Shown here: positions 8,879-24,006 of the stretch, piece by piece | Position numbering within the stretch: position 1 is the stretch's first letter | How the letters are laid out: each line of letters starts with the position of its first letter | Assembly (NCBI GenBank): GCA_022652945.1 | Contig: JALCRV010000005.1 | Span: 83,512-147,511, forward strand | DNA length: 64,000 nt | DNA from: Bacilli bacterium | Lineage (GTDB): Bacteria > Bacillota_I > Bacilli_A > RFN20 > CAG-288 | Reading direction: 5' to 3' | Program-made: the position numbers and the translations under genes | Notes under the pieces: model-generated | Database searches by the model: none | The model's input: the letters and a program-made list of their open reading frames with translations, nothing else | What the model was told of the DNA's origin: nothing

Positions 8879-10465
8879 TTATTTAGCAACTTCCACAGCG
8901 CGGACTTCACGGATAACCTGAACTTTAATCTGACCCGGATAAGTCATCTCAGCTTCGATCTTTTCCTTAATCTGTCTGGCTAAGGAGAAAGAATCATCAT
9001 CCGAGACTTTATCAGGGACCACCATGACTCTGACTTCACGGCCAGATTGCATCGCGTAGCAATTGGCAACGCCAGCGAAGGATTTGCAAACGGTCTCGAG
9101 CTGTTCGATACGTTGGACATAATTCTCCAAAGTCTCGGAACGGGCACCCGGACGAGCAGCCGATAAGGTATCAGCGGCCTGGACTAGGTTAGAAATGACA
9201 AACTTCGGAGGGACATCACCGTGGTGGGATTCAATGGCGTTGATGACAACTTCATTTTCCCCGAACTTCTTGGCGAGTCTGGAACCGACTTCGACGTGGC
9301 TGCCTTCAAGTTCGAAATCAGCGGATTTGCCGATATCGTGAAGCAGACCAGCACGTTTAGCTAAGGTCTGATCAAGACCTAACTCCGCAGCCATGATGCC
9401 GCTAAGAATAGCAACCTGGACGGAATGGTCCAAAGCATTCTGACCGTAAGAAGTACGATACTTCAAACGTCCGATGTAGGAGAGCAATTCGCGGTTGAAA
9501 CGGGTAAGGCCAAGTTTATTGACAGTATCCTGACCGATTCTCAAGACGTCCTCTTCAAGTTGGGCTTTGCACTTAGCGTAGATTTCTTCAATACGCCCCG
9601 GCTGAATACGGCCATCTTTAATCAGCGCTTCAAGAGTCTGTCTGGCGATTTCACGTCTGATCGGATCGAAGCAGGAAAGGGTGATAACCTCAGGGGTATC
9701 ATCGATAATGACATCGACACCCAAGAGGGACTCGAGAGATTTAATGTTGCGTCCTTCACGTCCGATAATACGTCCCTTCATATCCTCGGAAGGTAAAGTG
9801 ACCGTGGAAATAGTCTGTTCGGTCGTGACATCCTGAGAATACTTAGAAATGGCGATAGAGATAATATCCTTAGCTTTGTTATCGCATTCAGTCTCAATTT
9901 CATCAAGGCGATTCTTCTCATATTGGGAGACTTCCTTAGTCATCTTCTCTTCTTCGCGCTTCATCAGTTCATCGTGAGCTTCTTGGACGGACATCTGAGC
10001 AACTGTCTGGAGTTGATTGATGATTGCATCTAGTTTGGCCTGGACCTCAGCTTGCTTAGCAGCTAAATCAGCGGTGCGCTGTTCATAGTTGGCTTTAGCT
10101 TGGTCAAGAGCGGTTTCTTTGGTAAGCAGCAACTGATCACGACGATCGATTCCCGCTTCACGCTGATCGAGTTTCTTTTCTTCTTCAACGACTGAAGCTT
10201 TTCTTTCTTTAATATCCTGATCGGCTAAGTTCTTAAGTTCCTGAACCTGAGCCTTAGCATCGATCTTAGCATTCATCTTAATCTTCTCGGCTTGGATTTC
10301 GGCGTCTTTAAGGATCTTATCCGTGGCGACTTTAGCTCTCTTCTCTTTAAAGAAAGGAATGAAAACGACAACTAGGATACCTAAGACCAACCCGCCGATA
10401 GCGGCGAGAGCAATCCAAAGACCCAGAAGGTCGCTGGCTGCTAAAACAGAAATGTAATTTAACAT
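8879..10465 (-). CDS. rny: Ribonuclease Y
   Basis: The 528-aa product has an N-terminal membrane helix, a long coiled coil, a KH domain (MKGRIIGREGRNIKSLESLLGVDVIID) and an HD domain (LLHDIGKS...ESHHGD). Confidence 0.92.
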   Translation of the reverse strand: MLNYISVLAASDLLGLWIALAAIGGLVLGILVVVFIPFFKEKRAKVATDKILKDAEIQAEKIKMNAKIDAKAQVQELKNLADQDIKERKASVVEEEKKLDQREAGIDRRDQLLLTKETALDQAKANYEQRTADLAAKQAEVQAKLDAIINQLQTVAQMSVQEAHDELMKREEEKMTKEVSQYEKNRLDEIETECDNKAKDIISIAISKYSQDVTTEQTISTVTLPSEDMKGRIIGREGRNIKSLESLLGVDVIIDDTPEVITLSCFDPIRREIARQTLEALIKDGRIQPGRIEEIYAKCKAQLEEDVLRIGQDTVNKLGLTRFNRELLSYIGRLKYRTSYGQNALDHSVQVAILSGIMAAELGLDQTLAKRAGLLHDIGKSADFELEGSHVEVGSRLAKKFGENEVVINAIESHHGDVPPKFVISNLVQAADTLSAARPGARSETLENYVQRIEQLETVCKSFAGVANCYAMQSGREVRVMVVPDKVSDDDSFSLARQIKEKIEAEMTYPGQIKVQVIREVRAVEVAK

Positions 10466-10940: not shown

Positions 10941-11334
10941 GGGGATGTAAAGGTCTCGACAGGTAGGGAGCAGCCTTGAGCGCAGCGGAGTGGCGGCCTA
11001 ACCGCTAAAGCACGATAAATGCCAAACCTATTTATCACAGATATGCGCCGGCTTTTGCCGCCGCTGCTTGCTAGTCTTAACTAGCGCAGCATAAGCGGGA
11101 GGTACACTCCCGAGCATAGTCTAGAGAGTACTCGCTATTCCATTCGGAGTTCCCTAGGCTAACCAAGAACGGATAGTCTCACCTCAAGATAGTCTGAGGC
11201 AGATGAAATTAAGCGCTATCGCCCCTGAGAACAATACGGCCGTTACGAAGCTCAGGGTATTATGACGGCCTAAGCTGTAGCGATCAGGACTTTGCCTTAT
11301 TTGGACAGGGGTTCAACTCCCCTCATCTCCACCA
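10941..11334 (+). ncRNA. ssrA: tmRNA (SsrA)
   Basis: The 5' end GGGGATGTAAAGGTCTCGACAGG resembles B. subtilis ssrA (GGGGACGTTACGGATTCGACAGG). The 3' end has a tRNA-like T-arm and acceptor, GGTTCAACTCCCCTCATCTCCACCA. An internal reading frame follows ATAAAT (GCC AAA ... GCT GCT TGC TAG TCT TAA), which aligns with the B. subtilis tag region and its double stop. A hairpin plus T-run terminator follows at 11345-11364. Confidence 0.9.
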
Positions 11335-11364
11335 GCAAAAATAGCCCGAGAAATCGGGATTTTT

Positions 11365-11802
11365 CTATGATTTGACACTACCGTTTTTTTCACCCGACAG
11401 AACACGTGTCAAAAAGCTATCGACCTTCTCAGAATCAGTCTCAGCACAATGCAAATAATACTTGTTTGTGATCTCAGAAGACGAATGTCCGAGCATATTT
11501 GATACAACCTCTACACTAAAACCACTGTCAACCAAGATGATTGCAAGCGAATGTCTGAACGAATGAAAACGGAAATAAGGAATACCAGCCTTACGACAAC
11601 CATCAGCCACAGCACGATAGACAGTGGTAGCACCAATAGGCAACCTATGATCATAAAAAGAGAAGAAAAGATAATCATCGGGAAGAAGACAATAATCCTT
11701 GATGTACTCATCAATCAACTTGCAAACAAACTCAGGAAGCAAGACTTTGCGCCTTGAAGAAACCGACTTAGGAGAGATAGGCAGGCTTGCCAATCTCAAC
11801 AC
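11365..11802 (-). pseudogene. Tyrosine recombinase (phage integrase) C-terminal catalytic fragment
   Basis: A 145-aa ORF containing the HxxR box (FHSFRHSLA) and a C-terminal GHSSSEITNKYY catalytic-Tyr region. Full-length integrases are about 350-400 aa. No N-terminal SAM-like or core-binding domain precedes it, because a methyltransferase-like ORF overlaps its 5' end. It is adjacent to the ssrA 3' end, a classic integration site. Confidence 0.6.
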
Positions 11803-12115
11803 ACCACCTTATAAACTCGTCCTTGTTTGAGCAAGGAGGACTAGTGATAACGCAATCGAACTGAAACGAAGGAACACATTTAAGGAAATCAAGTTGATCT
11901 TTAGTAGTTGTAACAACCTTGAAGCCCTTAGCACGAAGGACAGAGGCAATGCGAGACGAGCCGTTATCGCAACACTCCCAATAAGTAAGAGAAGGATCTA
12001 GGAAGGGAACTAAGGCTAAGACAGCGTAATCAGGAGTATAAACATCGCCATTTGCGCCGTTTCGCATACGATTAAACATCGCTTGTATCAATCCGCCCTC
12101 ACCCCCTTCCAACAA
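11768..12115 (-). pseudogene. DNA methyltransferase-like N-terminal fragment (tentative)
   Basis: A 115-aa ORF with FDCVITSPPC, which resembles motif IV ([DNS]PP[YFW]) of N6A/N4C methyltransferases preceded by a hydrophobic beta-strand. It is truncated after about 115 aa and abuts and overlaps the integrase fragment. Confidence 0.3.
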
Positions 12116-12221
12116 GCCAACTTTCTTTCTTCTTTGCAGGACACTAAGAAGAAAGCGAAGAACAGCGTGTAATTTATCTAGGCTCTTATTGACAAACGAG
12201 CAAAACCAAGCAATAATAGAA

Positions 12222-13970
12222 TCAAACGACAGGCCGTTGCTTGCCTATTCCCGGACCGATGTCCGGTTTTTTTTTAAGCAAAGACTCATACTTATCCATC
12301 CTTCTAACCTTAAAAAAAGTAGGACGAGCATTTTTCGCCTTAATCCTTCTAGGAAGAGGAGAAACACCGACACCAGTCTTTAAAGGGAAATTAGTATCTT
12401 TTCTCAGCAGAGGAAACAACTTATCATCACAAAGAAAGGCCAAATTTTTTGAATGAAGAAACCCCTCGGAAGTAGTCAAAGAATCAAACACACGGCCCTT
12501 AACAGAATTAGTCTTCAAAAGCCCGAAAGGCTTGATAACATAAACAAAGTGAACACCCCTATAACGCTCACAAGAGAAACCAGCACGAATAAGATCAGGA
12601 TTAGGAACAGAAATAATATCGCCCTTCTTATAAAAACGCTTAGGATTGACACAAACAATTCTTTGATTAGGCATAAAACCACCTCACTCACGAGAAACAA
12701 ACTTCAAATTACGCTTTCTGTCAAAGCCAACAGTGAAAACGGAATTGTCAGAGGGAACAGAAACCTTATAGAAGGTTTGACCTTCCTTGATAAGGAAGCC
12801 TTTTCCTCTCTTGCCGATACGAAGAAGATGATCGTAGACAGAGCGACACTCTTTGGGATTATCTGACATATCCCAGCGACAATAGCCTTTACCCTTCCAA
12901 GAAGAACCGTATCCCATAGAAACACCAGCCTTTCTTTCTAACGGCAGTTATTACGGAAATAAGGCTTACGAGTCCACTTACGATGAACAACCTTACAGCC
13001 TTGACTCAGAGCGGAATGATAATCAGCGAGGAAGTCTCTACGAGCCTTATAATCTTCCTCATTAAACCCTTGAATCTGCTTACGACCATCAGCCTTATAA
13101 ACGATGTCAAACGACCGTAACCGCTTCTGTCCTTTTTTCTTGAAACCAAACATATTTTTTATTTCCTTTCCTTAAAATATGGATTTTTATAGCGATAGAC
13201 TTTCTTGCAGAAGAAACCACCGCCATAATCCCAAATACCACCAAACACATAACCGTACCGAACATCTTTACGAGACTTAAACTTTTCATTCAAAGAAGAA
13301 ACGCATTTGCCATAATCACCAACAATAACAAGATCATCAGTAAGATCACCGCCAATAAGCGAACCAACACCGCAATTTGGTTTTAAAGAATAGCCAGCAC
13401 CGTGATATGTAAAAGACATAAAAGCCACCTTTTTATTTCCAATAAAGACGGATAAACTTCTTATTCTTTGCGTAATGCTCATAGGCTTTCCTAGACCCAG
13501 CAGAATAAGGAGAACGATCTTTCCTTAGATCACCAGCCATAGAGCGACAGTAATCATCAATACCCCAAACACGATCTGTCTTGACTAAGGGAAAACCACG
13601 CTTCTTTCTCTCACGGATAGTAGAGCTAATATCAGCATTTGTATCTCTAATACCCTGAATGTATAGATCAAGGTCACGGCCGTTAAGCTTTGTAATACGA
13701 TTGACATTCATATTTCCATTTCCCCTAGAAAAACTAATGATTCCTCAAAGAAGACCGCAAGTATTCCAAAACCTTATTACGATTCCGAGAGTAGTAATAA
13801 TCCTGAGATCCATAACGATAAACAGTGCCTACCTTCTTACGGTGACCGTTAGCAGTTTTCTGCATTACCCAATGAGGAATCATCCCAGTAACACGCCATC
13901 CGACAGGTGATGTGTACCCCTCCTCTTGGGCACTTAAAGGTGTCCAGGATTCGGGGTACACATCAAACAA
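12222..13970 (-). pseudogene. Tiled, frame-broken coding remnant(s) of unknown function (about 575 aa in total) in the ssrA-adjacent island
   Basis: Six minus-strand ORFs (13734-13970, 13433-13711, 13159-13482, 12938-13153, 12684-12917, 12222-12674) tile the region head to tail. They are separated only by short gaps or frame shifts, and all are basic and rich in K, R, Y and G. This pattern suggests one or two longer genes inactivated by frameshifts and stops. The function is not recognisable. Confidence 0.4.
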
Positions 13971-14179
13971 TTTAAGTCCTTTTAATAATTACCGAACGAT
14001 TGATTTTTCATTGAAGAAAATCAGCCATGCAAATCAATCTTTGAAAACTAAAGCAATTTTAGCAAGCAAAACGCCGACGAATTTGCAAATAGCAACCGAA
14101 AAGTGGAATTTAGATATTCAAAGTTGGTAGTGCCTTTACTCCCTTTAAACGAGAATATCCTCGGGAGGAAAAGATGTAA

Positions 14180-15052
14180 ATGGAAAATATCTTGCAAGTC
14201 AAAGGGCTCTGCAAAAAATACCCCTCGTTCAAGTTGGACAATGTATCCTTTTCTATCGCTAAAGGTGAGATCGCCGGCTTCATCGGCAGAAACGGTGCCG
14301 GAAAAACAACCACTTTAAAGTGCCTAGCTAACCTTGTCCATAAAGATGATGGAGACATTACTATGTTTGGCCTGGATTTTAAGAAGAACGAAGAAGAATG
14401 CAAGACTAAAATAGCTTTTGTTTTAGAAGGTATCGACTATTATCCTAGGGTAAAAATCAAAAAGTTAACCGAGGTAACTAGAAGATATTATCCAAAATGG
14501 GACGAGAAGAAATACCGGAAATATCTTCGTGCTTTCGGTTTAAAAGAAGACTTAACGATGAAGCAGATGTCCAACGGGATGAAGCTCAAATATCAACTCG
14601 CTGTCAGTTTGTCCCATGGAGGAGATCTGTTAATATTCGATGAACCAACCTCCGGTTTAGACCCCATCTCTCGTGATGAGATACAGGAAATCTTCAAAAC
14701 CATTGTCTCTGACAAGAATAAAAGCATTCTTTTTTCCACTCATATCACAACCGACTTGGAGAAATGCGCGGATAAGATCATCTATCTTTCTCATGGTCGA
14801 ATCGTCATGGAGAAATCTAAAGAAGCCTTTCTTGCTTCCTTTAAATTAATCGAGGGTGAGAAAAATCTTCTGGAGCGAAAGGAGTTCATCGCTTCCCTGA
14901 TTTCTTACCGGGTGGAAGAAGACAGATTAGTCGGGCTGGGGTATTCAGATAAAATCATCCACATAAATAACGTAGTGGAACGTGCACCCAATTTGGATGA
15001 AATTATGATTTTCTACGAGAGAGGACAAGAAAATGAAAAATTTGCTTTATAA
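14180..15052 (+). CDS. ABC transporter ATP-binding protein
   Basis: Walker A (GRNGAGKTT), ABC signature (LSNGMKLKYQLAVSL) and Walker B (LLIFDEPTSGLD) motifs are present. An RBS (GGAGG) precedes the ATG. Confidence 0.9.
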   Translation: MENILQVKGLCKKYPSFKLDNVSFSIAKGEIAGFIGRNGAGKTTTLKCLANLVHKDDGDITMFGLDFKKNEEECKTKIAFVLEGIDYYPRVKIKKLTEVTRRYYPKWDEKKYRKYLRAFGLKEDLTMKQMSNGMKLKYQLAVSLSHGGDLLIFDEPTSGLDPISRDEIQEIFKTIVSDKNKSILFSTHITTDLEKCADKIIYLSHGRIVMEKSKEAFLASFKLIEGEKNLLERKEFIASLISYRVEEDRLVGLGYSDKIIHINNVVERAPNLDEIMIFYERGQENEKFAL

Positions 15053-15677
15053 AGAATTCCGACTTTCCTTAATGCCGATTAATCTGCTTTTCCTCCTTTC
15101 GCCTTTGCTGGTTCTGATTCCGGGCTACCCATATGCTGTCAGCTTTATCTATCTGCCAATCGGTTTAATCCAGATGTTTAATCTTGGAAGGGAGAATAAC
15201 GAGATATATTATTCTGCTTTACTGCCAGTTAGAAAGAATTCTTTCGTTAAATCCCGCTTCCTTTTAGTAATTGGCTTACAGGTAGCGGATTTGCTGCTGA
15301 CAATTCCCTGCCTTTATCTAAACGGAGCTTTAAAGATAATCAATTATGCGGGACTAGAAGCTAACTGGGCCTTAGAAGGCCTGGGGCTAATAATGTTCGG
15401 GCTTTTCAACGTGATTTTCTTAACGATGTTTTATAAAACGGGAGTTAAGTCAGGAATTCCTTTTCTTCTGGCCTTTTCTATCATGCTGATAGTCGGGGAG
15501 TCATTAGATCTCGTGTTTTCTTTCGTTAAGCCCTTCCCTAGCCTATTAGATACCACAATTTTTCAGATAAACTGGGCTCAGGGGGCTGTCTTCGCTTCAG
15601 GTCTTTTAATATATATCTTATTGACTCTTGCTTCCTATCTTCTCTCTATTCAAGAAGCCGAGAAGATTGAGATATAA
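15033..15677 (+). CDS. ABC-2 type transporter permease-like membrane protein
   Basis: A 214-aa protein with about 6 predicted hydrophobic helices. It overlaps the 3' end of the ATPase gene by 20 nt, which suggests translational coupling. Confidence 0.6.
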   Translation: MKNLLYKEFRLSLMPINLLFLLSPLLVLIPGYPYAVSFIYLPIGLIQMFNLGRENNEIYYSALLPVRKNSFVKSRFLLVIGLQVADLLLTIPCLYLNGALKIINYAGLEANWALEGLGLIMFGLFNVIFLTMFYKTGVKSGIPFLLAFSIMLIVGESLDLVFSFVKPFPSLLDTTIFQINWAQGAVFASGLLIYILLTLASYLLSIQEAEKIEI

Positions 15678-15709
15678 ACAATTATGGTAAAATCAAAAGG
15701 AGAAATATC

Positions 15710-16495
15710 ATGACAACCGGAGAAAAGATTTCAATTCAGAGAAGAAAGATCAATCTTACCCAAGAACAACTGGCGGATCAACTCTTGGTCACCCGCCAAA
15801 CTGTCTCTAAGTGGGAAACGGATTTAGCCTTCCCGGAAACAGATAAGTTAATTGCCATGTCGGAACTTTTCAATTGCTCAATCGATTATTTGTTAAAGGA
15901 AAATATTGAAGAAGCCACATCTGTTAGAGAAGAAGGGCTTAATAGAACAAAAATCAATGGTTACATCAACAGTATTTACTTTGAATATAAGAGCAAAAAG
16001 ACTATCCATGGCATCCCCTTGGTTCATGTTAACTGGGGTTTCAGAAGAAAAGCCAAAGGCATCATTGCCATCGGAGTTAGAGCGGAAGGTGTTATCGCCA
16101 TCGGCATCTTTGCAATGGGTCTTTTATCTTTCGGTGTCTTTTCCCTCGGCATCTTAGCTTTTGGCGCATGGGCTTTAGGCTTTATCGACTTAGGCGCAAT
16201 TGCGATAGGAGCCTTTTCCTTCGGAGCTATTTCAATCGGCTTAATGTCAAACGGTGCGCTTTCCGTCGGAGAATTTGCCTATGGGGCTTTAGCCATCGGA
16301 CAATACGGAGCGGTCGGAAACCGCGCTTACGGGTTAGTAACTTCCGCTTCGACGATGGATTTATCTTTCGGTACTTACTTCAAGGAAGCTTCTTCGGCTT
16401 TCCGCTTTTCCGAAGCAGGTAAAAAAGCCCTTAGCGAGGTGGTCCCTGAAGCCTTAAAATGGCTGATGAATTTCTTCCTCAGCCTATATAGTTAA
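15710..16495 (+). CDS. XRE-family HTH regulator with a C-terminal glycine-zipper repeat membrane domain
   Basis: The N-terminus (EKISIQRRKINLTQEQLADQLLVTRQTVSKWETDLAFPETDKL) is a Cro/C1 HTH. The C-terminal ~110 aa consist of about 14 tandem 7-8 residue units with conserved Gly (GIIAIGVRAEGVIAIGIFAMGLLSFGVFSLGILAFGAWALGFIDLGAIAIGAFSFGAISIGLMSNGALSVGEFAYGALAIG). Confidence 0.7.
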   Translation: MTTGEKISIQRRKINLTQEQLADQLLVTRQTVSKWETDLAFPETDKLIAMSELFNCSIDYLLKENIEEATSVREEGLNRTKINGYINSIYFEYKSKKTIHGIPLVHVNWGFRRKAKGIIAIGVRAEGVIAIGIFAMGLLSFGVFSLGILAFGAWALGFIDLGAIAIGAFSFGAISIGLMSNGALSVGEFAYGALAIGQYGAVGNRAYGLVTSASTMDLSFGTYFKEASSAFRFSEAGKKALSEVVPEALKWLMNFFLSLYS

Positions 16496-16497
16496 AT

Positions 16498-17142
16498 CTA
16501 ACTCCTTTTAGGATGATCCTTGTCTTCTTCCGGTATCACATAGCCGTGGCTAACAGCATAGATCGCCAGTTTGCTGATAGAATCAAAACCAGTTTTATTT
16601 AAGATAGAACGAACATATGATTTTATCGTGTTTTCTGAATAAGATAATTTTTCAGCGATCTCTTTTCTTCCATACCCCTCGCAGACTAAGCGCAGAATAG
16701 AAAGTTCCATCTTCGAAAGAGATAAAAGCAAAGAAGATCCATCGTTTTCCTCTTTTAAAGGAAAACAATGCTTCCCTTGAGAAACTGAGCGGATGATTTC
16801 TTTCGTTTCCTCTAAGGAAATGTTCTTATACACAAAAGCATCCGCTCCTTGCTCTTTAGCTTTTTGCACAAAACTAATCTCAGGATACCCGCTCATTAAA
16901 ATGACCTTAATTTGAGGAAAACGGGCTTTGAGGAGAGGAAGTAAATTTAGCATGTTTTCTTCTTTTAAGCAGGTGTCGGAAAGAATGATGTCGACATGGT
17001 TTTGATTTAAGAAATCCATCAGACCTGACGTTTCTTGAAAAAGTCCGACAATTGAAAAATCATCTCTCAAAGAATCAGCAAAAGAATCTAACAAAATTTT
17101 TTGATCTTCGATGATGACTATTTTAGTTTTTCCCTGGTCCAT
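16498..17142 (-). CDS. Two-component response regulator, NarL/FixJ (LuxR-type HTH) family
   Basis: A receiver domain (KIVIIEDQKILLDSF...DIILSDTCL...KVILMSGY) precedes a C-terminal LuxR HTH (LSILRLVCEGYGRKEIAEKLSYSENTIKSYVRSILNKTG). Confidence 0.85.
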   Translation of the reverse strand: MDQGKTKIVIIEDQKILLDSFADSLRDDFSIVGLFQETSGLMDFLNQNHVDIILSDTCLKEENMLNLLPLLKARFPQIKVILMSGYPEISFVQKAKEQGADAFVYKNISLEETKEIIRSVSQGKHCFPLKEENDGSSLLLSLSKMELSILRLVCEGYGRKEIAEKLSYSENTIKSYVRSILNKTGFDSISKLAIYAVSHGYVIPEEDKDHPKRS

Positions 17143-17278
17143 AAGAACATTTTACACAATAAGACCTTAAAAGCATACCCAAAAGGGTGAATATTCCCTC
17201 TCTTTCTGCCTAGAAAGCCGGCTAAGATTGCTTCAATTCGCCGATTTGCATAAAATAATTGATATGAATAAGGAAAAA

Positions 17279-18883
17279 ATGTGGCCATGGATACTTTTAG
17301 CCCTGCTGACCGTCGCTGTTTTTTCTGCTGGACTGATTATTTCCTTGCTTAGGGATGTTCCCTCGACTAGCCAAGTGCCAATGGGAACTACTTTTGTTTT
17401 CGTTTGTTTTACCTTGTTGATTGTGATTTGGGGCGGAACGATGATTTACCGCACGCAAGATATAAACATCAGACATTACTTTTTCTGGATCATTACTTTT
17501 CTGGCGATGCTAATCATCGTCGGTTATGTTAAAAGGCTGGCTTACTCAGAAACCTTCACCCGTTATTTATGGTATCTTTCTTATCTTCCCTTGCTAGTTC
17601 TCCCCACTTTCTGGCTATGTTTGATTCTCTCTTCGCTAACTAAAATAAATGACAAAAAAGCATTACTTATTTTGCTAAGTATCGATCTGATTCTTTTCGC
17701 CATAGTCCTAACAAACGACTTTAGCGGTTTAACCTTTATCTTAAGTGAGGATCCGAAGAAATATAAGCATGGGGTCGTTTATTTTATGATCTATGGTTAT
17801 ATTTTCCTTCAGCTTTTCTTGGCGATGGTTATCTTCAGCCATCGGACGATTAAGAGGAATTCCTTCAGACAGATTTGGCCCGTCTGGCTGGTTTTGCTTC
17901 TTATCGCAACATATTCAGTTTTATATATCCTTCCTAACTCTTTTATCTTTGATATTCCAATCCTCCATACTTATTATTTTGTCTATGCTTTCTTCTCTTT
18001 AGTCTTAATCGAGATCACTCTGGAGACGGGGCTTATTCAAAACACCGGCTTTTATAAGAGATATTTTGAAAGGTCATCTTATTGCTTGGCGTTGGTGGAT
18101 GGAAACTATAATCCCATCTATACCAACCAACGCTTCCAAATGGTCGAGGAAATCAAAACAACCGACAATACAGTCGTGAATTTCACCAGATACCGCAAGG
18201 AAAAAATAGCTGATGGTTATCTGATTATCCAAGAGGATCTGACCACCTTGCTTTCTTTACAAGAAGAGCTGAAAACCAAACAAGCCGAATTAAGAAGAAC
18301 GACAGAAATCCTAAAAAAGAACCAGAAGGTAGATTTAACCTTCGAGAAAATCAAGACTCAGGAAGAATTACTTAAAGCCATCGACGAGGAAATCGTTGAG
18401 AAGAATAAAAAAATCAAAGAGATCGTCGCCAGCTTCCCAGATGAACTGACCGAACAAAATCGTCAGGAATACCTTCCTATCTTGGCTGATCTAAAAATTC
18501 AAATCTGCTTTTTAAAGCAGCGTTGCTTGTTCTTGATTAACGGCTCTAAAAACGGCAGGCTGACCCACGATGAATTTGCTCTTTCGATGGGGAGTCTATT
18601 GCAGGATCTACGAAGCCTGAATTATCAAGTGGCGTGCTCTTACGGAGATGAAAAAGGCGGTAAATTGTCTTTCTGCTTAAAAGCCAACGACTTCTTCTAT
18701 ACGCTTGTGCAAAGCTTTAACGGGAAACCCGGAGCGATTTTCCTTTCCGTTTCCTTAGGCAAGGAACAAACCAAGGCTCGCGTTTTCCCTTCTAAGCTTT
18801 TTAAACTCGTCCCAAATAAGCTTCAATTAAAAAAGACTGAGGAGGATGGTGATTTAATCATCACCATGGTTAAGGGAAAATGA
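17279..18883 (+). CDS. Multi-pass membrane protein with a cytoplasmic coiled coil. Kinase-like accessory (no H-box, no N/G boxes), translationally coupled to the downstream histidine kinase.
   Basis: About 7 N-terminal hydrophobic helices are followed by a coiled coil (LQEELKTKQAELRRTTEILKKNQ...). No recognisable HisKA or HATPase motifs are present. The stop overlaps the HK start (ATGA). The start was chosen at MWPW, 6 nt after an AAGGA RBS. The track ORF begins 17 codons upstream, at 17228. Confidence 0.55.
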   Translation: MWPWILLALLTVAVFSAGLIISLLRDVPSTSQVPMGTTFVFVCFTLLIVIWGGTMIYRTQDINIRHYFFWIITFLAMLIIVGYVKRLAYSETFTRYLWYLSYLPLLVLPTFWLCLILSSLTKINDKKALLILLSIDLILFAIVLTNDFSGLTFILSEDPKKYKHGVVYFMIYGYIFLQLFLAMVIFSHRTIKRNSFRQIWPVWLVLLLIATYSVLYILPNSFIFDIPILHTYYFVYAFFSLVLIEITLETGLIQNTGFYKRYFERSSYCLALVDGNYNPIYTNQRFQMVEEIKTTDNTVVNFTRYRKEKIADGYLIIQEDLTTLLSLQEELKTKQAELRRTTEILKKNQKVDLTFEKIKTQEELLKAIDEEIVEKNKKIKEIVASFPDELTEQNRQEYLPILADLKIQICFLKQRCLFLINGSKNGRLTHDEFALSMGSLLQDLRSLNYQVACSYGDEKGGKLSFCLKANDFFYTLVQSFNGKPGAIFLSVSLGKEQTKARVFPSKLFKLVPNKLQLKKTEEDGDLIITMVKGK

Positions 18884-20220
18884 ACGCCATCTTTAATGAT
18901 TCGATGGAAGTGAAGGCGGTAATCATCATTTTGCTTTTGATGATTACTTTGCTTTTATCTGTCGGTTTGTTAATGGAGATTTTGCTAAAGCCTAACAAGA
19001 TAAAGATGGCGTATGCGATTATGGCTATTTGGGGAGGTGGCTTGTTGGAATTAGGATGGCTGATTGCTTTTTATAACAATAGCAATGTCCTATTAACTAC
19101 TATGTTGCTTTATTGTCCGGCTTTGGTCCTCGCCTACGCTCCTTTTTACGGCTTTAAGGAGAAGAAACCAATCGTTATCGCTGATATGCTTGCGCTCTTT
19201 TTGATCCTTCCATTTATGCAGTTTAATAAATATACGATCATCTATTATTTCTTGGCTTTGGTCTTTTATTTCTTCCGCTCTTCCTTTTATCTGTTTTCCA
19301 TGCTGAGCCTGATCGTGGAAAAGGTTAATCTCTATTCCCTGAAAATAAGCCTAGATAATCTCGATGGCGGCTTGATAATCACCGATAAAAGACAAGCTCC
19401 GGCCTTTATCAATCAAACTTTTATCAATTACCTCGCTAAAAAAGACATTCCCCAACATCAGAAAAAAGATCAATTGATGAAACAATTGACTTCTGGAGCC
19501 GAAAAGGTCGCAGATTATTCCTGGCTGATTAAGGATGAAAACAACTATTTCCTGTTAAAGGAAAAAGAAGGCGAGGGGGGCAGCGAGTTGCTTCTTTTAA
19601 ATGTCTCCTCGGAAATGGCTTTGGAAAATGAGCTCAAGAAAGTCAATGAAGATTTAACTAAGGAACAGAACACTCTGATTGAAGCCTTGGATGATTTAAA
19701 GAAGATTGAAAGAATCAAGGAAAGGGATCGAGTCCGCAGCCTTGTTCATGACTCTTTTGCTGAAGAAGTCTCCTTTATCCATCAAATCATCACCAATCCG
19801 AAGACCAACGATTTAAGGCCTTTAAAAGAGCTGGTAAAAAAAGAGCCGTTTAAGGAAGACTCTAAGACCAAGGATGTTAAAGAATTAATCGAGGAATATC
19901 AGTTATTAAATGTTAATATCATCTTGAAAGGTTCTTTAAATAAATTACCTCATCAGGATGTCGCTTTAGCGATTATTAAAGAAGGCATCGATAACGCTAT
20001 CCGTCACGGCAATGCCGTTAACGTCAATATCGCTATTCAGAAAGGCACTGATACATATAATGTAGAAATAAAAAATGACGGCAAAATACCGACGGAATTC
20101 TCTATGCATAATGGATTAACTAACCTGAAGGCATCTGTGGAATCCATCGGAGGAGAATTGGTCATTGAGAAAAATCCGGCCTTTACTTTGATTGCGAAGA
20201 TTCCTCTGCTATCAGATTAA
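18880..20220 (+). CDS. Sensor histidine kinase, HisKA_3 (NarX/DegS/ComP type)
   Basis: An N-terminal region of about 5-6 TM helices is followed by a HisKA_3-type H-box (RDRVRSLVHDSFAEEVS). The HATPase N-box (IKEGIDNAIRHGNA), G1 (KNDGKIP) and G2 (GLTNLKASVESIGGEL) are present. The gene is divergent from the LuxR-type response regulator. Confidence 0.85.
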   Translation: MNAIFNDSMEVKAVIIILLLMITLLLSVGLLMEILLKPNKIKMAYAIMAIWGGGLLELGWLIAFYNNSNVLLTTMLLYCPALVLAYAPFYGFKEKKPIVIADMLALFLILPFMQFNKYTIIYYFLALVFYFFRSSFYLFSMLSLIVEKVNLYSLKISLDNLDGGLIITDKRQAPAFINQTFINYLAKKDIPQHQKKDQLMKQLTSGAEKVADYSWLIKDENNYFLLKEKEGEGGSELLLLNVSSEMALENELKKVNEDLTKEQNTLIEALDDLKKIERIKERDRVRSLVHDSFAEEVSFIHQIITNPKTNDLRPLKELVKKEPFKEDSKTKDVKELIEEYQLLNVNIILKGSLNKLPHQDVALAIIKEGIDNAIRHGNAVNVNIAIQKGTDTYNVEIKNDGKIPTEFSMHNGLTNLKASVESIGGELVIEKNPAFTLIAKIPLLSD

Positions 20221-20253
20221 ATTTGCATTAACATGTTCTTAAAGGAGGCGGTT

Positions 20254-22008
20254 ATGTTCAATAAAGGGCATCTATATCCTGTGAAAGAAGAAGTGAAGAA
20301 ATTTACTAAAGAGATTCCTTTAAAAGAATATCCCCGGCCGAACCTTGTCAGGAATTCTTATCTTTGTTTAAACGGAACATGGGATTTTTACTTAGGAAAA
20401 GCAGAAACGGCCCCCGGAACTTACACCAGCAAAATCCTCGTGCCTTTCGCCGTAGAATCCCCACTTAGCGGGATAGAAAAATTAGTCGAGCCCGATGAGA
20501 TTATGTGGTACTCCAGGGAGGTAAAAATACCGCCTGAGATGAATGATAAGAACCTCATCCTGCATTTCGATGGTGTCGATCAGGAATGTGAGATTTTTAT
20601 TAATGACGAGTTAAAAGCTACTCACGTCGGAGGTTATACACCTTTCCAATTAGAATTAGGAAAAATCAGCTCTTCTTTTAAACTGACTTTAAAGGTCATC
20701 GACCGGACAGATTTGTCTTATCATACCCGCGGAAAACAGCGTCTAGATCCTCAGAATTCCTGCTTTTATTCTTCCTCCTCAGGAATCTATAAGCCGGTCT
20801 GGTTAGAAGGGGTGGAGGAGGAGTTTATCAAGAATGTCTTTTTCTATCCTTCCTACGATAAAAGAAGCGTGGAAGTCTTAGTGGAAGCTAACTCAACTAA
20901 AGACATCACACTGGAAATTGAAAATCAGAAAACTCTCGTTAAATCCGGGGTCAAAACAGAGATTAAGCTTCTTGCTTTTCATCCTTGGTCGATTGAAGAT
21001 CCTTTCTTATATCAGGTGAAAATAACTCTCGGAAAAGATGAGGTCTCTTCTTATTTCGGAGTGAGAAAAATCTCGAGAGGCGACTATCAAGGCAAAGAAG
21101 CATTTTACTTAAATGACAAACCGTTGATCATCAACGGCCTTTTAGACCAGGGGTACTTCTTTTTAGGAAATCTTACGCCCCGTTCCTATCAGGATTATGA
21201 AAACGACATCAAGAAAGCCAAGGATTTAGGTTTTAACTGCTTAAGGAAGCATGTGAAGATCGAATGCCCGATGTTTTATTATCTGGCGGATAAACTTGGT
21301 ATGCTGCTAATCCAGGATTTTCCTAACGGAGGAAGGCCTTACCGTTTCTTTAATGCGGTGGCTCCGCGCCTCTTCCCTTTTATGGATGAAAAATACCTTA
21401 AAGCGAATAAGTTGGGACGAAAAGAAGAAGCTAGCCAACAGGAGTTTGAAAAAGAATCTGAAGAATACCTGGTACTTCTTAATAATTACCCATCCATTAT
21501 TATCTATACGATTTTTAACGAAGGGTGGGGAGAATTCGCCCCGGAGCAAAATTACAACCGCTTAAAGAAAAAAGAATCCTACCGTCTTTTCGATACCGCT
21601 TCCGGTTGGTACGATACGCCTTTCTCCGATATCTATTCTGTGCACTCTTATGATACGGCTGGCAAACTGCGCCTTGATCACCTGGCGAAGAGACCTTATC
21701 TCCTTTCAGAAATCGGGGGTATCGGTTATAAGGAAAAAGATCACTTCTATTTCGGCTTCCTTTATGGGCATCACGTAGCTTTTAAGAAAGAAAACCTGAA
21801 TAAGAAATACGAGAAATTATATAGAAGAGAGATTATTCCTCTTTTAAAAAAAGGTCTGCTGCAGGGTACGATTTATACTCAGCTAACCGATTGTGAAAGA
21901 GAAGGAAACGGCATTCTGACTTTCGATCGTGTCCTGAAGATCGATGAAGAGCTGATAAAGAGCATCAATAAAGAAATACTAGAGATTCAGCTAAGCAGAA
22001 ATAACTGA
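20254..22008 (+). CDS. Glycoside hydrolase family 2-like protein (sugar-binding domain plus TIM-barrel)
   Basis: The N-terminal GH2 sugar-binding signature is present (LNGTWDF..., LHFDGVDQECEIFINDELKATHVGGYTPFQLEL). The TIM-barrel motifs are NCLRKHVKIE (compare the GH2 N-x-x-R-x-x-H motif) and YTIFNEGWGE (acid/base NE). The start was placed at the Met preceded by AAAGGAGG. Confidence 0.7.
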   Translation: MFNKGHLYPVKEEVKKFTKEIPLKEYPRPNLVRNSYLCLNGTWDFYLGKAETAPGTYTSKILVPFAVESPLSGIEKLVEPDEIMWYSREVKIPPEMNDKNLILHFDGVDQECEIFINDELKATHVGGYTPFQLELGKISSSFKLTLKVIDRTDLSYHTRGKQRLDPQNSCFYSSSSGIYKPVWLEGVEEEFIKNVFFYPSYDKRSVEVLVEANSTKDITLEIENQKTLVKSGVKTEIKLLAFHPWSIEDPFLYQVKITLGKDEVSSYFGVRKISRGDYQGKEAFYLNDKPLIINGLLDQGYFFLGNLTPRSYQDYENDIKKAKDLGFNCLRKHVKIECPMFYYLADKLGMLLIQDFPNGGRPYRFFNAVAPRLFPFMDEKYLKANKLGRKEEASQQEFEKESEEYLVLLNNYPSIIIYTIFNEGWGEFAPEQNYNRLKKKESYRLFDTASGWYDTPFSDIYSVHSYDTAGKLRLDHLAKRPYLLSEIGGIGYKEKDHFYFGFLYGHHVAFKKENLNKKYEKLYRREIIPLLKKGLLQGTIYTQLTDCEREGNGILTFDRVLKIDEELIKSINKEILEIQLSRNN

Positions 22009-22134
22009 CAGGTTTCAATTTGCAATGACATTTTCAGTCCGCAAACAATGAGCGGAAAACAATAGGATTCAGTTTTTTTCCATTTTCAATATTGAGTAAA
22101 TATATAATATATATAAATTAGAAGTTCACTATCC

Positions 22135-24006
22135 ATGGATCAATCAGGGCGCTTTCAAAGCTTAGTCGACAAATACTTGGCTAACATCGACGCTTACATT
22201 AACGCTGATGCGTTTTCGGAACTTCCGTCCTTGAAAGATGAAGAAATCATCCCTTTCATCAGAAAGAGAACTGCTAAATACAAGGAAATCTGCAAGGAAG
22301 ATGATGGAATCATCTCCGAGCTTTTCGGTCAATATAAAAACGGGCAAAAGATCCTCGATGACGAAACAGCTGACAGGTTGGAAAATGCCGCGGACATTTT
22401 CACTTCAAAGTATCCAGCACGTGAATCGGGTTTAGGTTTGGAGATTTATAAGCTCGTTCTAGAAAATGTCTCGGCCCGCAACGATTTCAATAGTAAAATC
22501 CGTCTGCTTTATAAATGTGGTTTGGCAACTTATTATTCGACCAACTCTTCCACGCCTGATGAGAACCCATATTTCAGGCAGTTTTTTAATTACATCGATA
22601 AATATTTCACTTTATCTAAAGAAAGCCGGCTTTATTTTTGCCGGGGCTTAGGTAATACCATCATCGGGCAAAATGAAAAAACGAAAGCTCAGATTTACCA
22701 GTTGTCTTTTGCTTACGGAGATAAAATAATCGCTTTCTTCCAACGGGATGATGTCAGGGCTCTCGATCCGGATTTCCAATTCGATAAATGGATTCTTCTT
22801 ACCCATAAGAATCTAACTACTTTCCTTCAGACTATCCGTATCTATAAAGACATCATTCCCTTAAAGGACCGCGAGAAGACTTTGGAGCATGCGGAATACG
22901 CCTATAGACATGCGGGAGAGTTCTATAAAGCTGACGATCCGATCAAGTTACAGACTGAATACGCTTATTACGCTTCTTTGTTCCATGCCGAGAAAATCAC
23001 CTTAGGTGACCTTTTAGAGAACCTTAATAAGATGCGTCAGCGTCCGACTGGCGATCCTTATTCCCCAGGAAGCATTTATCTAAAATCAAAAATACCAAGT
23101 TACATCATCGAATATTACAGTACATATTCAGATGATAATCCCCAGGTAAAAGTAAGCGAGTACGAAAGAATCTTCAATGAAGTCTTGACTTATCTTCAGG
23201 GCTTAGGCCAACACAAGAATTACACCACCGCTCAAGACGGGATGCTGGCTTTTATTACGGCCTCTTTAGTCGATACTGAATTAGCAACCATCCAGGAACG
23301 TTTGTTCTCTTTAACTATCAAGGTTCACCTTCCGACTTATGCCCATACGAAGATGGTAACAAAGCTTTCCCTCATGCTGGCTAATTATCTCTATGACCAC
23401 CGGCCGGATTATTTTTTGGGATGCAGCGGCTTAGAGACGATGGAAGCGGTCAATAATCCGATTAACAGAAAGGCCTTCTTCGATAATTTCTCAGAGGGCT
23501 GCCTTTTCCACGATATCGGCAAGTATTTCTGCTTGAACGCTATCTCCACCTGCTACCGCAGCCTCAGCCCCAACGAAGAAAAACTGATCAAGATGCACCC
23601 TTGGGATGGGCATGAATTATTCAAAGGGACTAACGATGAACGCAATACCGTCATGGCGGAAATCATTTATTATCACCATCTTTATTACGACCGCTTCGAT
23701 GGTTATCCTTATATCCCGATGAGCGTCAAAATCATCAATAAAAAAGCGGTGGATATCGTCGCTGTCGCGGACTCTTTAGATGCCGCCACCGATAATATAG
23801 GCAAAGCTTACGCTGATGCCGTCTCCTTAGATGATGCTTTAAAGGAATTAAGAGAGGGCGAAGGAACCAGATATTCCCCGGATGTTGTCGATCTTTTCAC
23901 CATTCCAGAGATTTACGAAAAGACCAAGGAAATCCTTGATCAAGAACGTCAAAATATCTATATCACATGCGCTAAGGAAATCATGGAGAACAAGACAAAA
24001 GTCTGA
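22135..24006 (+). CDS. HD-domain protein, HD-GYP-like (degenerate motif), with a large N-terminal domain of unknown function
   Basis: A C-terminal HD domain (FHDIGKYF ... IIYYHHLYYDRFDGYPY ... VADSLDAATD) resembles the HD-GYP signature HHExxDGxGYP, but the Glu is replaced and the spacing is shifted. The preceding ~400 aa show no recognisable domain. Confidence 0.6.
   Translation: MDQSGRFQSLVDKYLANIDAYINADAFSELPSLKDEEIIPFIRKRTAKYKEICKEDDGIISELFGQYKNGQKILDDETADRLENAADIFTSKYPARESGLGLEIYKLVLENVSARNDFNSKIRLLYKCGLATYYSTNSSTPDENPYFRQFFNYIDKYFTLSKESRLYFCRGLGNTIIGQNEKTKAQIYQLSFAYGDKIIAFFQRDDVRALDPDFQFDKWILLTHKNLTTFLQTIRIYKDIIPLKDREKTLEHAEYAYRHAGEFYKADDPIKLQTEYAYYASLFHAEKITLGDLLENLNKMRQRPTGDPYSPGSIYLKSKIPSYIIEYYSTYSDDNPQVKVSEYERIFNEVLTYLQGLGQHKNYTTAQDGMLAFITASLVDTELATIQERLFSLTIKVHLPTYAHTKMVTKLSLMLANYLYDHRPDYFLGCSGLETMEAVNNPINRKAFFDNFSEGCLFHDIGKYFCLNAISTCYRSLSPNEEKLIKMHPWDGHELFKGTNDERNTVMAEIIYYHHLYYDRFDGYPYIPMSVKIINKKAVDIVAVADSLDAATDNIGKAYADAVSLDDALKELREGEGTRYSPDVVDLFTIPEIYEKTKEILDQERQNIYITCAKEIMENKTKV

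What the first reader, a model, noticed from the sequence alone, without database searches (positions are those of the whole stretch)
11335..14130. Decayed integrative element at the tmRNA 3' end: integrase fragment, MTase-like fragment, and ~1.7 kb of tiled frame-broken ORFs
ssrA is a canonical integration site. Immediately 3' of it lie a 145-aa tyrosine-recombinase catalytic fragment lacking its N-terminal domains, an overlapping methyltransferase-like fragment, and six consecutive minus-strand ORFs that tile 12222-13970 with only frame breaks between them. This suggests an old, mutationally eroded island or prophage remnant. The accessory cluster that follows (ABC transporter, XRE regulators, two-component system, GH2, HD-GYP protein; 14180-24006) may have arrived with it. 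I could not find a direct repeat of the ssrA 3' end (attR) by eye.
Basis: partly seen in the sequence, partly recalled or inferred. Interest (0 to 1): 0.55.

Follow-up and report, generated by a model that had tools for sequence, protein, structure and literature searches.

The report
Dead mobile-element stump beside tmRNA gene
Right after the tmRNA gene lies the 2.6-kb immobile stump of a foreign integrating element, with a cut-down integrase, a cut-down methylase and six small intact genes of unknown function; this is an ordinary kind of genomic fossil, though from a poorly known, probably rolling-circle-replicating, element family.

Summary
"Decayed integrative element" is supported. The integrase piece equals residues 236-372 of a 372-aa integrase found intact elsewhere (L089, 97% nt identity). 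The methyltransferase equals about residues 1-106 of a 173-aa enzyme, and its NPPY motif has become SPPC. One deletion joined the two genes across an imperfect 19-nt repeat (11775-11793). No attR exists in the window.

Two parts of the interpretation fail. First, the six ORFs are not frame-broken debris. Each has its own Shine-Dalgarno sequence and start codon 5-22 nt after the previous stop, two adjacent ones share a frame, and none has a longer homologue in billions of proteins. They look like intact orphan genes. Second, the cluster at 14180-24006 has host-like codon composition, whereas all eight element ORFs share an extreme preference for T-ending codons. That preference matches single-stranded DNA phages. 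In L089 the intact integrase is preceded by a Rep_trans rolling-circle initiator. The stump therefore probably derives from a rolling-circle integrative element, whether phage or mobilizable element is unknown. Interest is modest.

The parts
10941..11334 (+). tmRNA (ssrA) gene, intact. The element abuts its last base.
   Evidence: ARAGORN. Rfam RF00023, 96.3 bits, model positions 1-374 of 374. The 3' end is conserved in relatives L004 and L005 up to the CCA and diverges after it.
11335..11793 (-). Block 96.8% identical in DNA to the end of an intact relative (L089, positions 1378-1839). It covers the terminator spacer plus the integrase 3' part.
   Evidence: blastn and alignment. In L089 the same block abuts tRNA-Leu(GAG), not a tmRNA.
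11345..11366 (+). Intrinsic terminator hairpin for the tmRNA, carried by the element.
   Evidence: Terminator scan. The sequence is essentially identical (one base differs just after the stem) behind tRNA-Leu in L089. By eye in the L003 sequence, a homologous hairpin lies behind tRNA-Glu with one compensatory pair change.
11365..11774 (-). Integrase C-terminal fragment, equal to residues 236-372 of a 372-aa tyrosine integrase. It keeps HxxR, GH and Tyr. It lacks Arg-I, the GK motif (residues 230-232) at the deletion junction and the whole N-terminal half.
   Evidence: PF00589 positions 66-167 of 172. It aligns to XerA residues 200-303 of 317. 135 of 137 residues are identical to P0005, with motif positions given.
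11775..11793 (.). Deletion junction: an imperfect repeat (TTGGCAAG..CCTATCT) present in both the intact methyltransferase gene and the intact integrase gene.
   Evidence: Three-way alignment of the window, L078 and L089. Methyltransferase homology ends at 11775. Integrase homology starts at 11793.
11775..12091 (-). DNA methyltransferase N-terminal fragment, about residues 1-106 of 173. Catalytic motif IV has changed from NPPY to SPPC.
   Evidence: phrog_799, E 2e-15. 86% nt identity to the intact 173-aa gene (P0003/L078). Alignment and dN/dS of 0.08.
12124..12156 (.). Conserved inverted repeat (roughly 10-bp arms) at the boundary between the mosaic modules.
   Evidence: Present in the window and in three copies in L003. 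Fold result (weak, z = -1.3).
12189..12275 (+). Putative ~55-nt antisense RNA: promoter TTGACA-17-AATAAT (12189-12217), two hairpins, and a terminator at 12251-12275 with a T9 run. It is complementary to the 3' end of P150.
   Evidence: Promoter match of 11/12 and the top terminator hit. The promoter is conserved, and both hairpins are kept through compensatory changes or a loop insertion in L003 copy A. It has no Rfam family. Expression was not tested.
12222..12674 (-). P150, a basic orphan protein (pI 10.4).
   Evidence: SD GAGGTGG plus ATG. The only homologue among 1.84 billion representatives is the 93-aa P0001. Omega is 0.33 in this frame only. T3 is 0.56.
12684..12917 (-). P77, a basic orphan protein.
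   Evidence: Own SD and ATG. No homologue or family. T3 is 0.44.
12938..13153 (-). P71, a basic orphan protein.
   Evidence: Own SD and ATG. No homologue. T3 is 0.47.
13159..13419 (-). P86, an orphan protein. The true start is at 13419, not 13482.
   Evidence: SD AAGGTGG 5 nt before the ATG at 13419. The gene call in L001 agrees. The AF2 model has pLDDT 65.6 and no fold match.
13433..13711 (-). P92, a basic orphan protein.
   Evidence: Own SD and ATG. No homologue. T3 is 0.53.
13734..13970 (-). P78, a basic orphan protein and the first gene of the run.
   Evidence: SD AAAGGA plus TTG. No homologue. T3 is 0.41.
13971..14179 (.). Right border zone. The compositional signature stops here and no attR is present.
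   Evidence: Per-gene third-position skew drops from 0.45 to 0.01 across this gap. No repeat of the tmRNA 3' end was found.

Best explanation
Positions 11335-13970 are the immobile stump of a foreign integrative element that sits directly behind the tmRNA gene.

Shown. (1) The integrase ORF is only residues 236-372 of a 372-aa tyrosine integrase. (2) The neighbouring methyltransferase is only about residues 1-106 of 173, and its NPPY motif is now SPPC. (3) The two genes are fused at an imperfect 19-nt repeat that both intact genes contain, so one short-homology deletion removed everything between them. (4) All eight ORFs share an extreme preference for T-ending codons that the host genes lack. 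(5) No attR exists in the window.

Inferred. The deleted interval held a Rep_trans rolling-circle replication gene, because that gene directly precedes the intact integrase in the nearest relative. The element family therefore passes through a single-stranded DNA stage, which would explain the codon bias. Without Arg-I, the N-terminal DNA-binding half and an attR, the stump cannot excise.

The six upstream ORFs are separate, apparently intact, translationally coupled small basic orphan genes and not frameshift debris. They may still be expressed, perhaps under a ~55-nt antisense RNA that overlaps the 3' end of P150. Their function is unknown.
For: The integrase is truncated: Pfam positions 66-167 of 172, XerA residues 200-303 of 317, and 135 of 137 residues identical to residues 236-372 of P0005.

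DNA 11334-11793 is 96.8% identical to L089.

The methyltransferase is truncated and mutated. It was under strong purifying selection for most of its history (omega 0.08, dS 0.76), so the decay is recent relative to that divergence.

The junction repeat is shown.

Composition: T3 is 0.41-0.57 and T3/A3 skew is 0.45-0.67 for all eight ORFs. The other 41 ORFs in the window have T3 of 0.24-0.39 and skew of 0.01-0.36, with sharp borders at both ends. T-ending codons are favoured in all 15 amino-acid families tested.

Reference values: M13, phiX174 and B5 have mean skews of 0.43-0.61, whereas two dsDNA temperate Firmicute phages have 0.08 and -0.05. Preference for T-ending codons is the published signature of ssDNA phages (PMC3278643).

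In L089, a Rep_trans protein (PF02486, 51.8 bits, above the curated cut-off) overlaps the start of the intact integrase, and both genes have skews of 0.65-0.72.

The small ORFs are real and separate: tiling and SD statistics, independent gene calls, T enrichment concentrated at codon position 3, and no longer homologue anywhere.

A second decayed relative sits at tRNA-Glu with the same gene order but a different breakpoint (L003).
Against: No empty ssrA site could be found for comparison. Contigs from the three closest sources (L004, L005, L079) all end 125-184 nt after the tmRNA.

No single contig shows an intact element carrying the small ORFs, methyltransferase, Rep and integrase together. 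The content of the deleted interval therefore rests on one 2.5-kb relative.

The 97%-identical integrase end in L089 abuts tRNA-Leu, not a tmRNA. Site-specific insertion at ssrA is therefore not straightforward to explain.

The intact methyltransferase otherwise occurs in a tailed dsDNA phage (L085), so part of the stump could come from such a phage.

Whether the six ORFs are expressed or selected is untested, except for 90 codons of P150 with few substitutions.
Confidence: 0.78

Rival explanations
1. One reading: the 1.7 kb at 12222-13970 is one or a few larger genes broken by frameshifts, so it consists of pseudogene fragments.
For: The six ORFs use all three frames on one strand with tiny gaps. 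The neighbouring integrase and methyltransferase genes really are decayed. None of the six has a known family.
Against: Every junction has a stop, then an SD-like site, then a start codon 5-22 nt on (P = 3e-4 for the six SD energies). P77 and P150 share a frame, so that junction is a stop codon and not a frameshift. No larger protein matches any piece, singly or concatenated, in 5.8 billion clusters, 1.84 billion representatives, or phage tblastn. A gene caller returns them as eight separate genes.
Confidence: 0.06
2. The stump is a remnant of an ordinary tailed dsDNA prophage (its early-gene region plus integrase), not of a rolling-circle or ssDNA element. On this view the T-ending codon bias has another cause.
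For: The intact methyltransferase lies in the replication-to-packaging region of a 25.6-kb tailed-phage contig with portal, Mu-F and scaffold genes (L085). Its homologues are annotated in many dsDNA phages. Runs of small orphan genes are typical of phage early regions. L090 joins the P150/antisense-RNA module to the methyltransferase plus 42 nt of L085-like flank.
Against: In L085 the methyltransferase is a compositional alien: its skew is 0.75, while 28 of the other 29 genes lie between -0.30 and +0.33. The gene therefore looks imported into the tailed phage. The nearest intact integrase is preceded by Rep_trans, and both carry the same bias. All eight window ORFs carry that bias. L090 is a 1.4-kb k-mer assembly and may be chimeric.
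Confidence: 0.15
3. The six small genes and the antisense RNA are a retained, still-functional cargo module (for example superinfection control or a regulator), kept by selection after the rest of the element decayed.
For: The ORFs are intact with good translation signals, whereas both flanking enzymes are broken. The P150 3' end plus the promoter/terminator module is far more similar between the window and L003 (dS 0.12) than the adjacent methyltransferase is (dS 0.65). The same module recurs three times in L003 with structure-preserving changes.
Against: There is no family, defence-system or structural match. There are no expression data. The five upstream ORFs occur in one lineage only, so selection cannot be measured. 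Intactness may only mean that the deletion was recent.
Confidence: 0.25

Closest known systems
Genomic islands and prophage remnants integrated at the 3' end of ssrA or tRNA genes by tyrosine integrases (general class, from established knowledge; Pf filamentous prophages at tRNA and tmRNA genes are an example, PMC7549136)
   Same: The integrase gene points toward, and ends about 30 nt from, the 3' end of the RNA gene. The element supplies the downstream terminator. The composition is foreign. Related elements sit at different RNA genes (tmRNA here, tRNA-Leu in L089, tRNA-Glu in L003).
   Different: There is no attR direct repeat. The integrase lacks its first 235 residues. Only 2.6 kb is left. 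In Pf phages different sites go with integrases 40-62% identical, whereas here the C-terminal 137 residues are 135/137 identical (96.8% over the 459-nt DNA block) yet the neighbouring RNA gene differs.
Integrating rolling-circle elements that encode Rep_trans (PF02486): filamentous ssDNA prophages such as CTXphi with RstA, and integrative mobilizable or conjugative elements of Firmicutes whose relaxase or replicase is of this family (the named examples are from my own knowledge)
   Same: In the nearest intact relative, Rep_trans directly precedes the tyrosine integrase. All genes lie on one strand, are small and are tightly packed. The T-ending codon bias is at the level of M13 and phiX174.
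   Different: No Rep gene remains in the window. No morphogenesis ATPase, coat-like membrane protein or relaxase accessory gene was seen, and no predicted transmembrane segment was found in the six proteins. The Rep is only 23-30% identical to any annotated phage or plasmid Rep.
Small phage DNA methyltransferases of family phrog_799 (for example Lauvirus lau218 and Thermus phage phiYS40)
   Same: The intact relative is 35-41% identical over about 150 residues, with the same length class of about 170 aa and the D-x-V-I-T-N-P-P-Y motif.
   Different: The window copy stops after about residue 106 and reads SPPC instead of NPPY. It is very unlikely to be active.
Lambda OOP RNA, a short antisense RNA overlapping the 3' end of cII (from my own knowledge)
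   Same: A strong promoter and an intrinsic terminator about 55 nt apart, convergent with and complementary to the last ~50 nt of a phage-type gene.
   Different: There is no sequence or Rfam relationship. Expression and target effect are untested. The target gene is an orphan.

Membership tests
Tyrosine recombinase / phage integrase (PF00589) | Significant match to the catalytic domain | tested here: met
   E 8.6e-18, 65 bits against a cut-off of 27.1, but only profile positions 66-167 of 172.
Tyrosine recombinase / phage integrase (PF00589) | Complete catalytic set (Arg-I, Lys, His-x-x-Arg, His/Trp, Tyr) plus N-terminal DNA-binding domains | tested here: not met
   HSFRHS, LGHSS and NKYY are present. 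Arg-I (LRIGEVRG, residues 201-208 of P0005), the GK motif (residues 230-232) and residues 1-235 are absent. The DNA directly upstream is methyltransferase DNA.
Integrative element at a tRNA/tmRNA gene | Integrase gene adjacent to the 3' end of the RNA gene | tested here: met
   The integrase stop codon is 31 nt after the tmRNA CCA. Relatives L089 and L003 have the same layout.
Integrative element at a tRNA/tmRNA gene | Direct repeat of the RNA gene's 3' end at the far border (attR) | tested here: not met
   No shared word of 13 nt or more, and no match to the last 25 nt with up to 3 mismatches, in 64 kb.
Integrative element at a tRNA/tmRNA gene | Composition distinct from the host, with sharp borders | tested here: met
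   T3/A3 skew is 0.45-0.67 for the eight ORFs against 0.01-0.36 for the other 41 window ORFs. It is 0.30 for rny on one side and 0.01 for the ABC ATPase on the other.
Integrative element at a tRNA/tmRNA gene | Presence/absence polymorphism (an empty site in relatives) | tested here: inconclusive
   The closest relatives have the rny-tmRNA adjacency, but their contigs end 125-184 nt after the tmRNA. No integrase is visible in that short stretch.
Phage DNA methyltransferase (phrog_799) | Homology to the family | tested here: met
   E 2.4e-15. 86% nt identity to the intact 173-aa gene.
Phage DNA methyltransferase (phrog_799) | Full length with an intact (D/N)PPY catalytic motif | tested here: not met
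   The motif is SPPC in place of NPPY. Homology ends at about residue 106 of 173.
Rolling-circle (Rep_trans) / ssDNA element | Rep_trans initiator gene | tested here: not met
   None is present in the window stump. It is present only in relative L089, directly upstream of the intact integrase (PF02486, 51.8 bits).
Rolling-circle (Rep_trans) / ssDNA element | Strand-asymmetric preference for T-ending codons, with all genes co-directional | tested here: met
   for the window. Reference phages. Literature: PMC3278643.
Inoviridae-type filamentous phage | Morphogenesis ATPase (pI/Zot) and small membrane-spanning coat proteins | tested here: not met
   No Pfam or PHROG hit. The maximum 19-residue hydropathy of the six proteins is 1.13 or less. 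These genes may have been lost, so absence from a stump is weak evidence.
   No longer homologue was found. All six have their own SD and start.
cis-antisense small RNA | Conserved promoter and terminator, with structure kept by compensatory change | tested here: met
   Only three informative copies exist, two of them nearly identical.
cis-antisense small RNA | A transcript is actually made | not testable with these tools
   No expression data are available.

The most novel reading that the evidence does not exclude
The stump is the first visible trace of an undescribed lineage of integrating rolling-circle/ssDNA elements in uncultured Erysipelotrichaceae-like Bacilli. These could be small ssDNA phages or phage-like satellites. 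The lineage would have Rep_trans plus a tyrosine integrase and would park behind different tRNA/tmRNA genes. Its integrase 3' end is nearly identical at two different RNA genes (97% identical, at tmRNA versus tRNA-Leu). It carries a set of basic orphan proteins and an OOP-like antisense RNA, and it has donated its methyltransferase gene to tailed dsDNA phages.
Probability: 0.3. Interest if true: 0.55.

Novelty: new member of a known kind. Interest (0 to 1): 0.33.

Why it matters
For annotating this genome the result is mostly housekeeping. The integrase and methyltransferase should be flagged as pseudogenes. The six small ORFs should be kept as genes. The neighbouring ABC/regulator/GH2 cluster should not be called part of an island.

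Three points have wider, though modest, value. First, third-position T-versus-A skew delimited a 2.6-kb foreign stump to the gene and linked it to relatives in other metagenomes. Second, that skew, together with the Rep_trans gene in a relative, points to a rolling-circle element family in a poorly sampled gut/rumen Bacilli clade where such elements are hardly described. Third, near-identical integrase ends behind different RNA genes raise a testable question about how target choice is encoded in this family.

Tried and rejected
Homology searches for the six small ORFs all found nothing:
- Pfam, PHROGs, NCBIfam and PADLOC.
- The word-indexed 5.8-billion-cluster search, with P150 alone and with the other five concatenated.
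- Exhaustive HMMER of P150 against 1.84 billion representatives.
- tblastn of all six against 50,697 phage records at E 0.1.
- blastn of the region against phages and plasmids.
- All-against-all comparison of the six for paralogy.

Structure prediction gave little. P150 reached pLDDT 38 and is unusable. P86 reached pLDDT 66, but no fold match below E 0.17 was found in PDB or BFVD.

The empty-site search failed:
- The genome-collection scan with RNase Y found relatives only up to 76% identity, and their contigs stop just after the tmRNA.
- The metagenome scan with the tmRNA 3' end found one contig with the same problem.
- An 18-aa peptide from the gene downstream of the tmRNA in that relative has no counterpart in the window.

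The viral-contig collection returned nothing for the methyltransferase fragment, the integrase fragment, the full integrase, Rep, or two conserved DNA motifs.

I considered and dropped three ideas. A hydrophobic alternative-frame peptide at the P150 3' end as a type I toxin: by eye on the sequence, six of the eight differences between L003 copies A and C are synonymous in the P150 frame. A programmed invertible segment at 11807-11832: it is better explained as a one-off template-switch scar in L003. A full-length integrase in another frame: ruled out.
Full report
**1. What is in the sequence**

ARAGORN and Rfam both place an intact tmRNA gene at 10941-11334 on the plus strand. It lies 476 nt from the divergent RNase Y gene at 8879-10465. 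Downstream, on the minus strand, the following ORFs occur:
- 11365-11802, which matches only the C-terminal two-thirds of the tyrosine-recombinase catalytic domain (PF00589 positions 66-167 of 172, E 9e-18).
- 11768-12115, which matches the phage DNA methyltransferase family phrog_799 (E 2e-15).
- Six ORFs that tile 12222-13970.

Stop-free runs of at least 70 codons cover 99.7% of that 1.75 kb. In 2000 shuffles the mean coverage was 13% and the maximum 71%.

**2. The integrase and the methyltransferase are truncated, and one deletion joined them**

Listing the members of the 90% cluster of the integrase fragment revealed a 372-aa full-length version, P0005. It lies on a 2.5-kb NCBI contig, L089.

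Window 11334-11793 is 96.8% identical in DNA to L089 1378-1839. The window protein is identical at 135 of 137 positions to residues 236-372. The window copy has lost residues 1-235. That loss includes the first catalytic arginine (LRIGEVRG, residues 201-208) and the whole N-terminal half. It retains HSFRHS, LGHSS and the NKYY tyrosine.

The methyltransferase has an intact 173-aa relative, P0003. Window homology to it is 86% in DNA. It runs from the Shine-Dalgarno site to 11775 and stops there. About 106 of 173 codons therefore remain, and the NPPY motif reads SPPC. Over its history the gene evolved under strong purifying selection (window versus L078: dS 0.76, omega 0.08). The inactivation is therefore late.

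The end of methyltransferase homology (11775) and the start of integrase homology (11793) overlap by 19 nt. Both intact genes contain TTGGCAAG..CCTATCT at that point. A single deletion across this short imperfect repeat explains the fusion. It also explains why the first nine codons of the 'integrase ORF' (LRLASLPI) are methyltransferase DNA read in another frame. No integrase N-terminus can be hidden in another frame.

**3. The six ORFs are separate genes, not frameshift debris**

Each ORF begins at its own ATG or TTG 5-22 nt after the preceding stop, behind an SD-like site. Examples are GAGGTGG-N4-ATG for P150 and AAGGTGG-N5-ATG for P86. The mean predicted duplex energy with the anti-SD is -6.9 kcal/mol, against -2.8 for all positions in the region (P = 3e-4). 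P77 and P150 are in the same frame and are separated by a TGA. The 107-aa ORF listed mechanically is really an 86-aa gene starting at 13419.

An independent gene caller on another assembly of the same organism (L001) returns exactly these genes: 78, 92, 86, 71, 77, 150, 107 and 142 aa. T enrichment is concentrated at codon position 3 of the annotated frames. This is expected of sequences that evolved as coding DNA in those frames.

None of the six has a family, and none has a longer homologue. The one exception is the C-terminal 93 residues of P150, found in L003 at 91% identity. For that stretch omega is 0.33 in the annotated frame and 1.0 and 1.7 in the other two frames. That estimate rests on only 15 substitutions.

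All six proteins are basic (pI 9.3-10.4). They are aromatic-rich (10-19%), apart from P150, which is near the host value. None has a predicted membrane segment. Structure prediction did not help. Their function remains unknown.

**4. The stump is foreign, and its borders are sharp**

All eight minus-strand ORFs have T at 41-57% of third positions and A at 11-15%. Their T3/A3 skew is 0.45-0.67. The other 41 ORFs in the window have T3 of 0.24-0.39 and skew of 0.01-0.36. The skew is 0.30 for rny on one side and 0.01 for the ABC ATPase at 14180 on the other.

T-ending codons are preferred in all 15 amino-acid families tested. The coding-strand composition (A .244, C .173, G .237, T .346) closely resembles that of phage M13, with nearly equal A and T fractions.

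The genes at 14180-24006 are an ABC transporter, an XRE-type regulator, a LuxR-type two-component system, a GH2 glycosidase and an HD-domain protein. Their composition is host-like. The suggestion that they arrived with the element therefore has no support.

No attR exists in the window.

**5. What kind of element it was**

Three ssDNA phages (M13, phiX174, B5) give mean skews of 0.43-0.61. Two dsDNA temperate Firmicute phages, which carry the closest annotated integrases, give 0.08 and -0.05. This is a small calibration. It agrees with the published finding that ssDNA phages favour T-ending codons through C-to-T pressure (PMC3278643).

In L089 the intact integrase is directly preceded, and overlapped, by a Rep_trans rolling-circle initiator (PF02486, 51.8 bits against a cut-off of 29.6). 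Both genes carry the bias (skews 0.72 and 0.65), whereas the flanking host gene has -0.05. I therefore infer that the ancestor was a rolling-circle-replicating integrative element, and that its Rep gene lay in the interval deleted from the window.

Whether it was an ssDNA phage or a mobilizable element cannot be decided. No morphogenesis or coat-like genes survive. The Rep is only 23-30% identical to anything annotated: a streptococcal satellite phage and small Exiguobacterium and Paenibacillus plasmids. Filamentous Pf prophages show that tRNA/tmRNA integration with tyrosine integrases, and carriage of methyltransferase genes or pseudogenes, occur in ssDNA phages (PMC7549136).

One piece of evidence points the other way. 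The intact methyltransferase is otherwise found inside a tailed dsDNA phage contig (L085), which has portal, Mu-F, scaffold and D5-type primase genes. There, however, it is a compositional alien. Its skew is 0.75, while 28 of the other 29 genes lie between -0.30 and +0.33. The gene therefore looks as though it moved from the T-rich lineage into the tailed phage.

**6. Relatives and oddities**

L003, a 2.4-kb JGI contig, carries the P150 C-terminus, the same intergenic module, a methyltransferase cut at NPPY, and a 37-codon integrase tail. The tail is 57% identical to window residues 104-131. All of this lies next to tRNA-Glu. It is an independent decay of a related element at another RNA gene.

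L089 places a 97%-identical integrase end and terminator against tRNA-Leu(GAG), whereas the window places it against the tmRNA. The two RNA 3' ends are only roughly half identical by eye in the alignment. Both, and the tRNA-Glu of L003, end in CACCA. How one integrase end comes to flank different RNA genes is unexplained. The determinants of site choice may lie in the part deleted here.

The closest sequenced relatives of the host are uncultured Erysipelotrichaceae/Bacilli MAGs, with RNase Y identities of 76% and 69%. They share the rny-tmRNA adjacency, but their contigs break within 184 nt after the tmRNA. No empty site could be examined.

**7. A possible small RNA**

On the plus strand a near-consensus promoter (TTGACA-17-AATAAT, 12189-12217) is followed by two hairpins and a T9 terminator at 12251-12275. 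The predicted ~55-nt RNA would be antisense to the last ~50 nt of P150.

The module occurs three times in L003. In the divergent copy the promoter is conserved. The terminator stem differs at two pairs with compensatory changes, and the first hairpin keeps its stem around a 10-nt loop insertion. The module is also much more similar between the window and L003 (dS 0.12) than the adjoining methyltransferase is (dS 0.65).

The architecture recalls lambda OOP RNA (my own knowledge). Expression is untested.

**8. Verdict**

This is a known kind of object: a degraded integrative element at ssrA. The unusual features are the orphan gene set, the ssDNA-like codon signature with a Rep_trans relative, and the inconsistent RNA-gene neighbour. 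These make it a modestly interesting lead rather than a surprise.

Noticed in passing
window 11334-11793 versus L089 1378-1924: An integrase 3' end and terminator 97% identical to the window's lies against tRNA-Leu(GAG) in L089, but against the tmRNA in the window. A more distant relative (L003) lies against tRNA-Glu. All three RNA genes end in CACCA. The two RNA 3' ends are otherwise only about half identical, so how target choice works here is unclear.
   Followed up: partly
window 12124-12385; L003 367-715, 985-1131, 1547-1807: A ~270-bp module is repeated three times in L003. It comprises an inverted repeat, a near-consensus promoter, two hairpins, a terminator and the 3' end of a P150-like gene. 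The promoter is conserved and the stem changes are compensatory, which suggests a small antisense RNA. No Rfam family matches.
   Followed up: partly
L085 10001-10522 (and L078, L086-L088, L091): In a 25.6-kb tailed-phage contig the intact methyltransferase gene has a third-position T/A skew of 0.75. Nearly all of its 29 neighbours lie between -0.30 and +0.33, which suggests the gene was transferred from the T-rich element lineage into dsDNA phages. One other gene there (19086-19913) also has a skew of 0.59.
   Followed up: partly
L003 2091-2106 versus window 11807-11822: The 16-mer CCTTATAAACTCGTCC at the L003 methyltransferase/integrase junction is the reverse complement of methyltransferase codons lying just downstream in the intact gene. 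It is flanked by CCTTA/TAAGG inverted repeats. This looks like a template-switch (inversion plus deletion) scar, separate from the window's simple deletion.
   Followed up: partly
L004 1-170, L005 1-125, L079 1-184; L001/L002 ends at window ~11009-11038: Every assembly of this organism's relatives breaks within about 125-184 nt after the tmRNA gene. A second assembly of the same organism breaks inside the tmRNA. This hints at strain-variable or repeated DNA at this site in those populations.
   Followed up: no
window 10941-11334; L004 171-577; L005 126-517: ARAGORN predicts tmRNA tag peptides ending in ...PAFAAAAC in this organism and in its two closest relatives, rather than the common ...ALAA-type ending.
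   Followed up: no
L090 1-1386: This short k-mer-assembled contig joins an L003-like left part (98% identity) to the intact methyltransferase plus 42 nt of L085-like phage flank (99% identity). It is either a real hybrid locus or an assembly chimera through the shared gene.
   Followed up: no
window 11793-11802: An SD-like AAGGTGG inside the methyltransferase coding sequence lies 10 nt before the TTG at 11793. A 142-aa chimeric integrase C-terminal protein could therefore still be translated. A gene caller predicts it, and NCBI annotates a shorter 117-aa version (MCI2068762.1).
   Followed up: no
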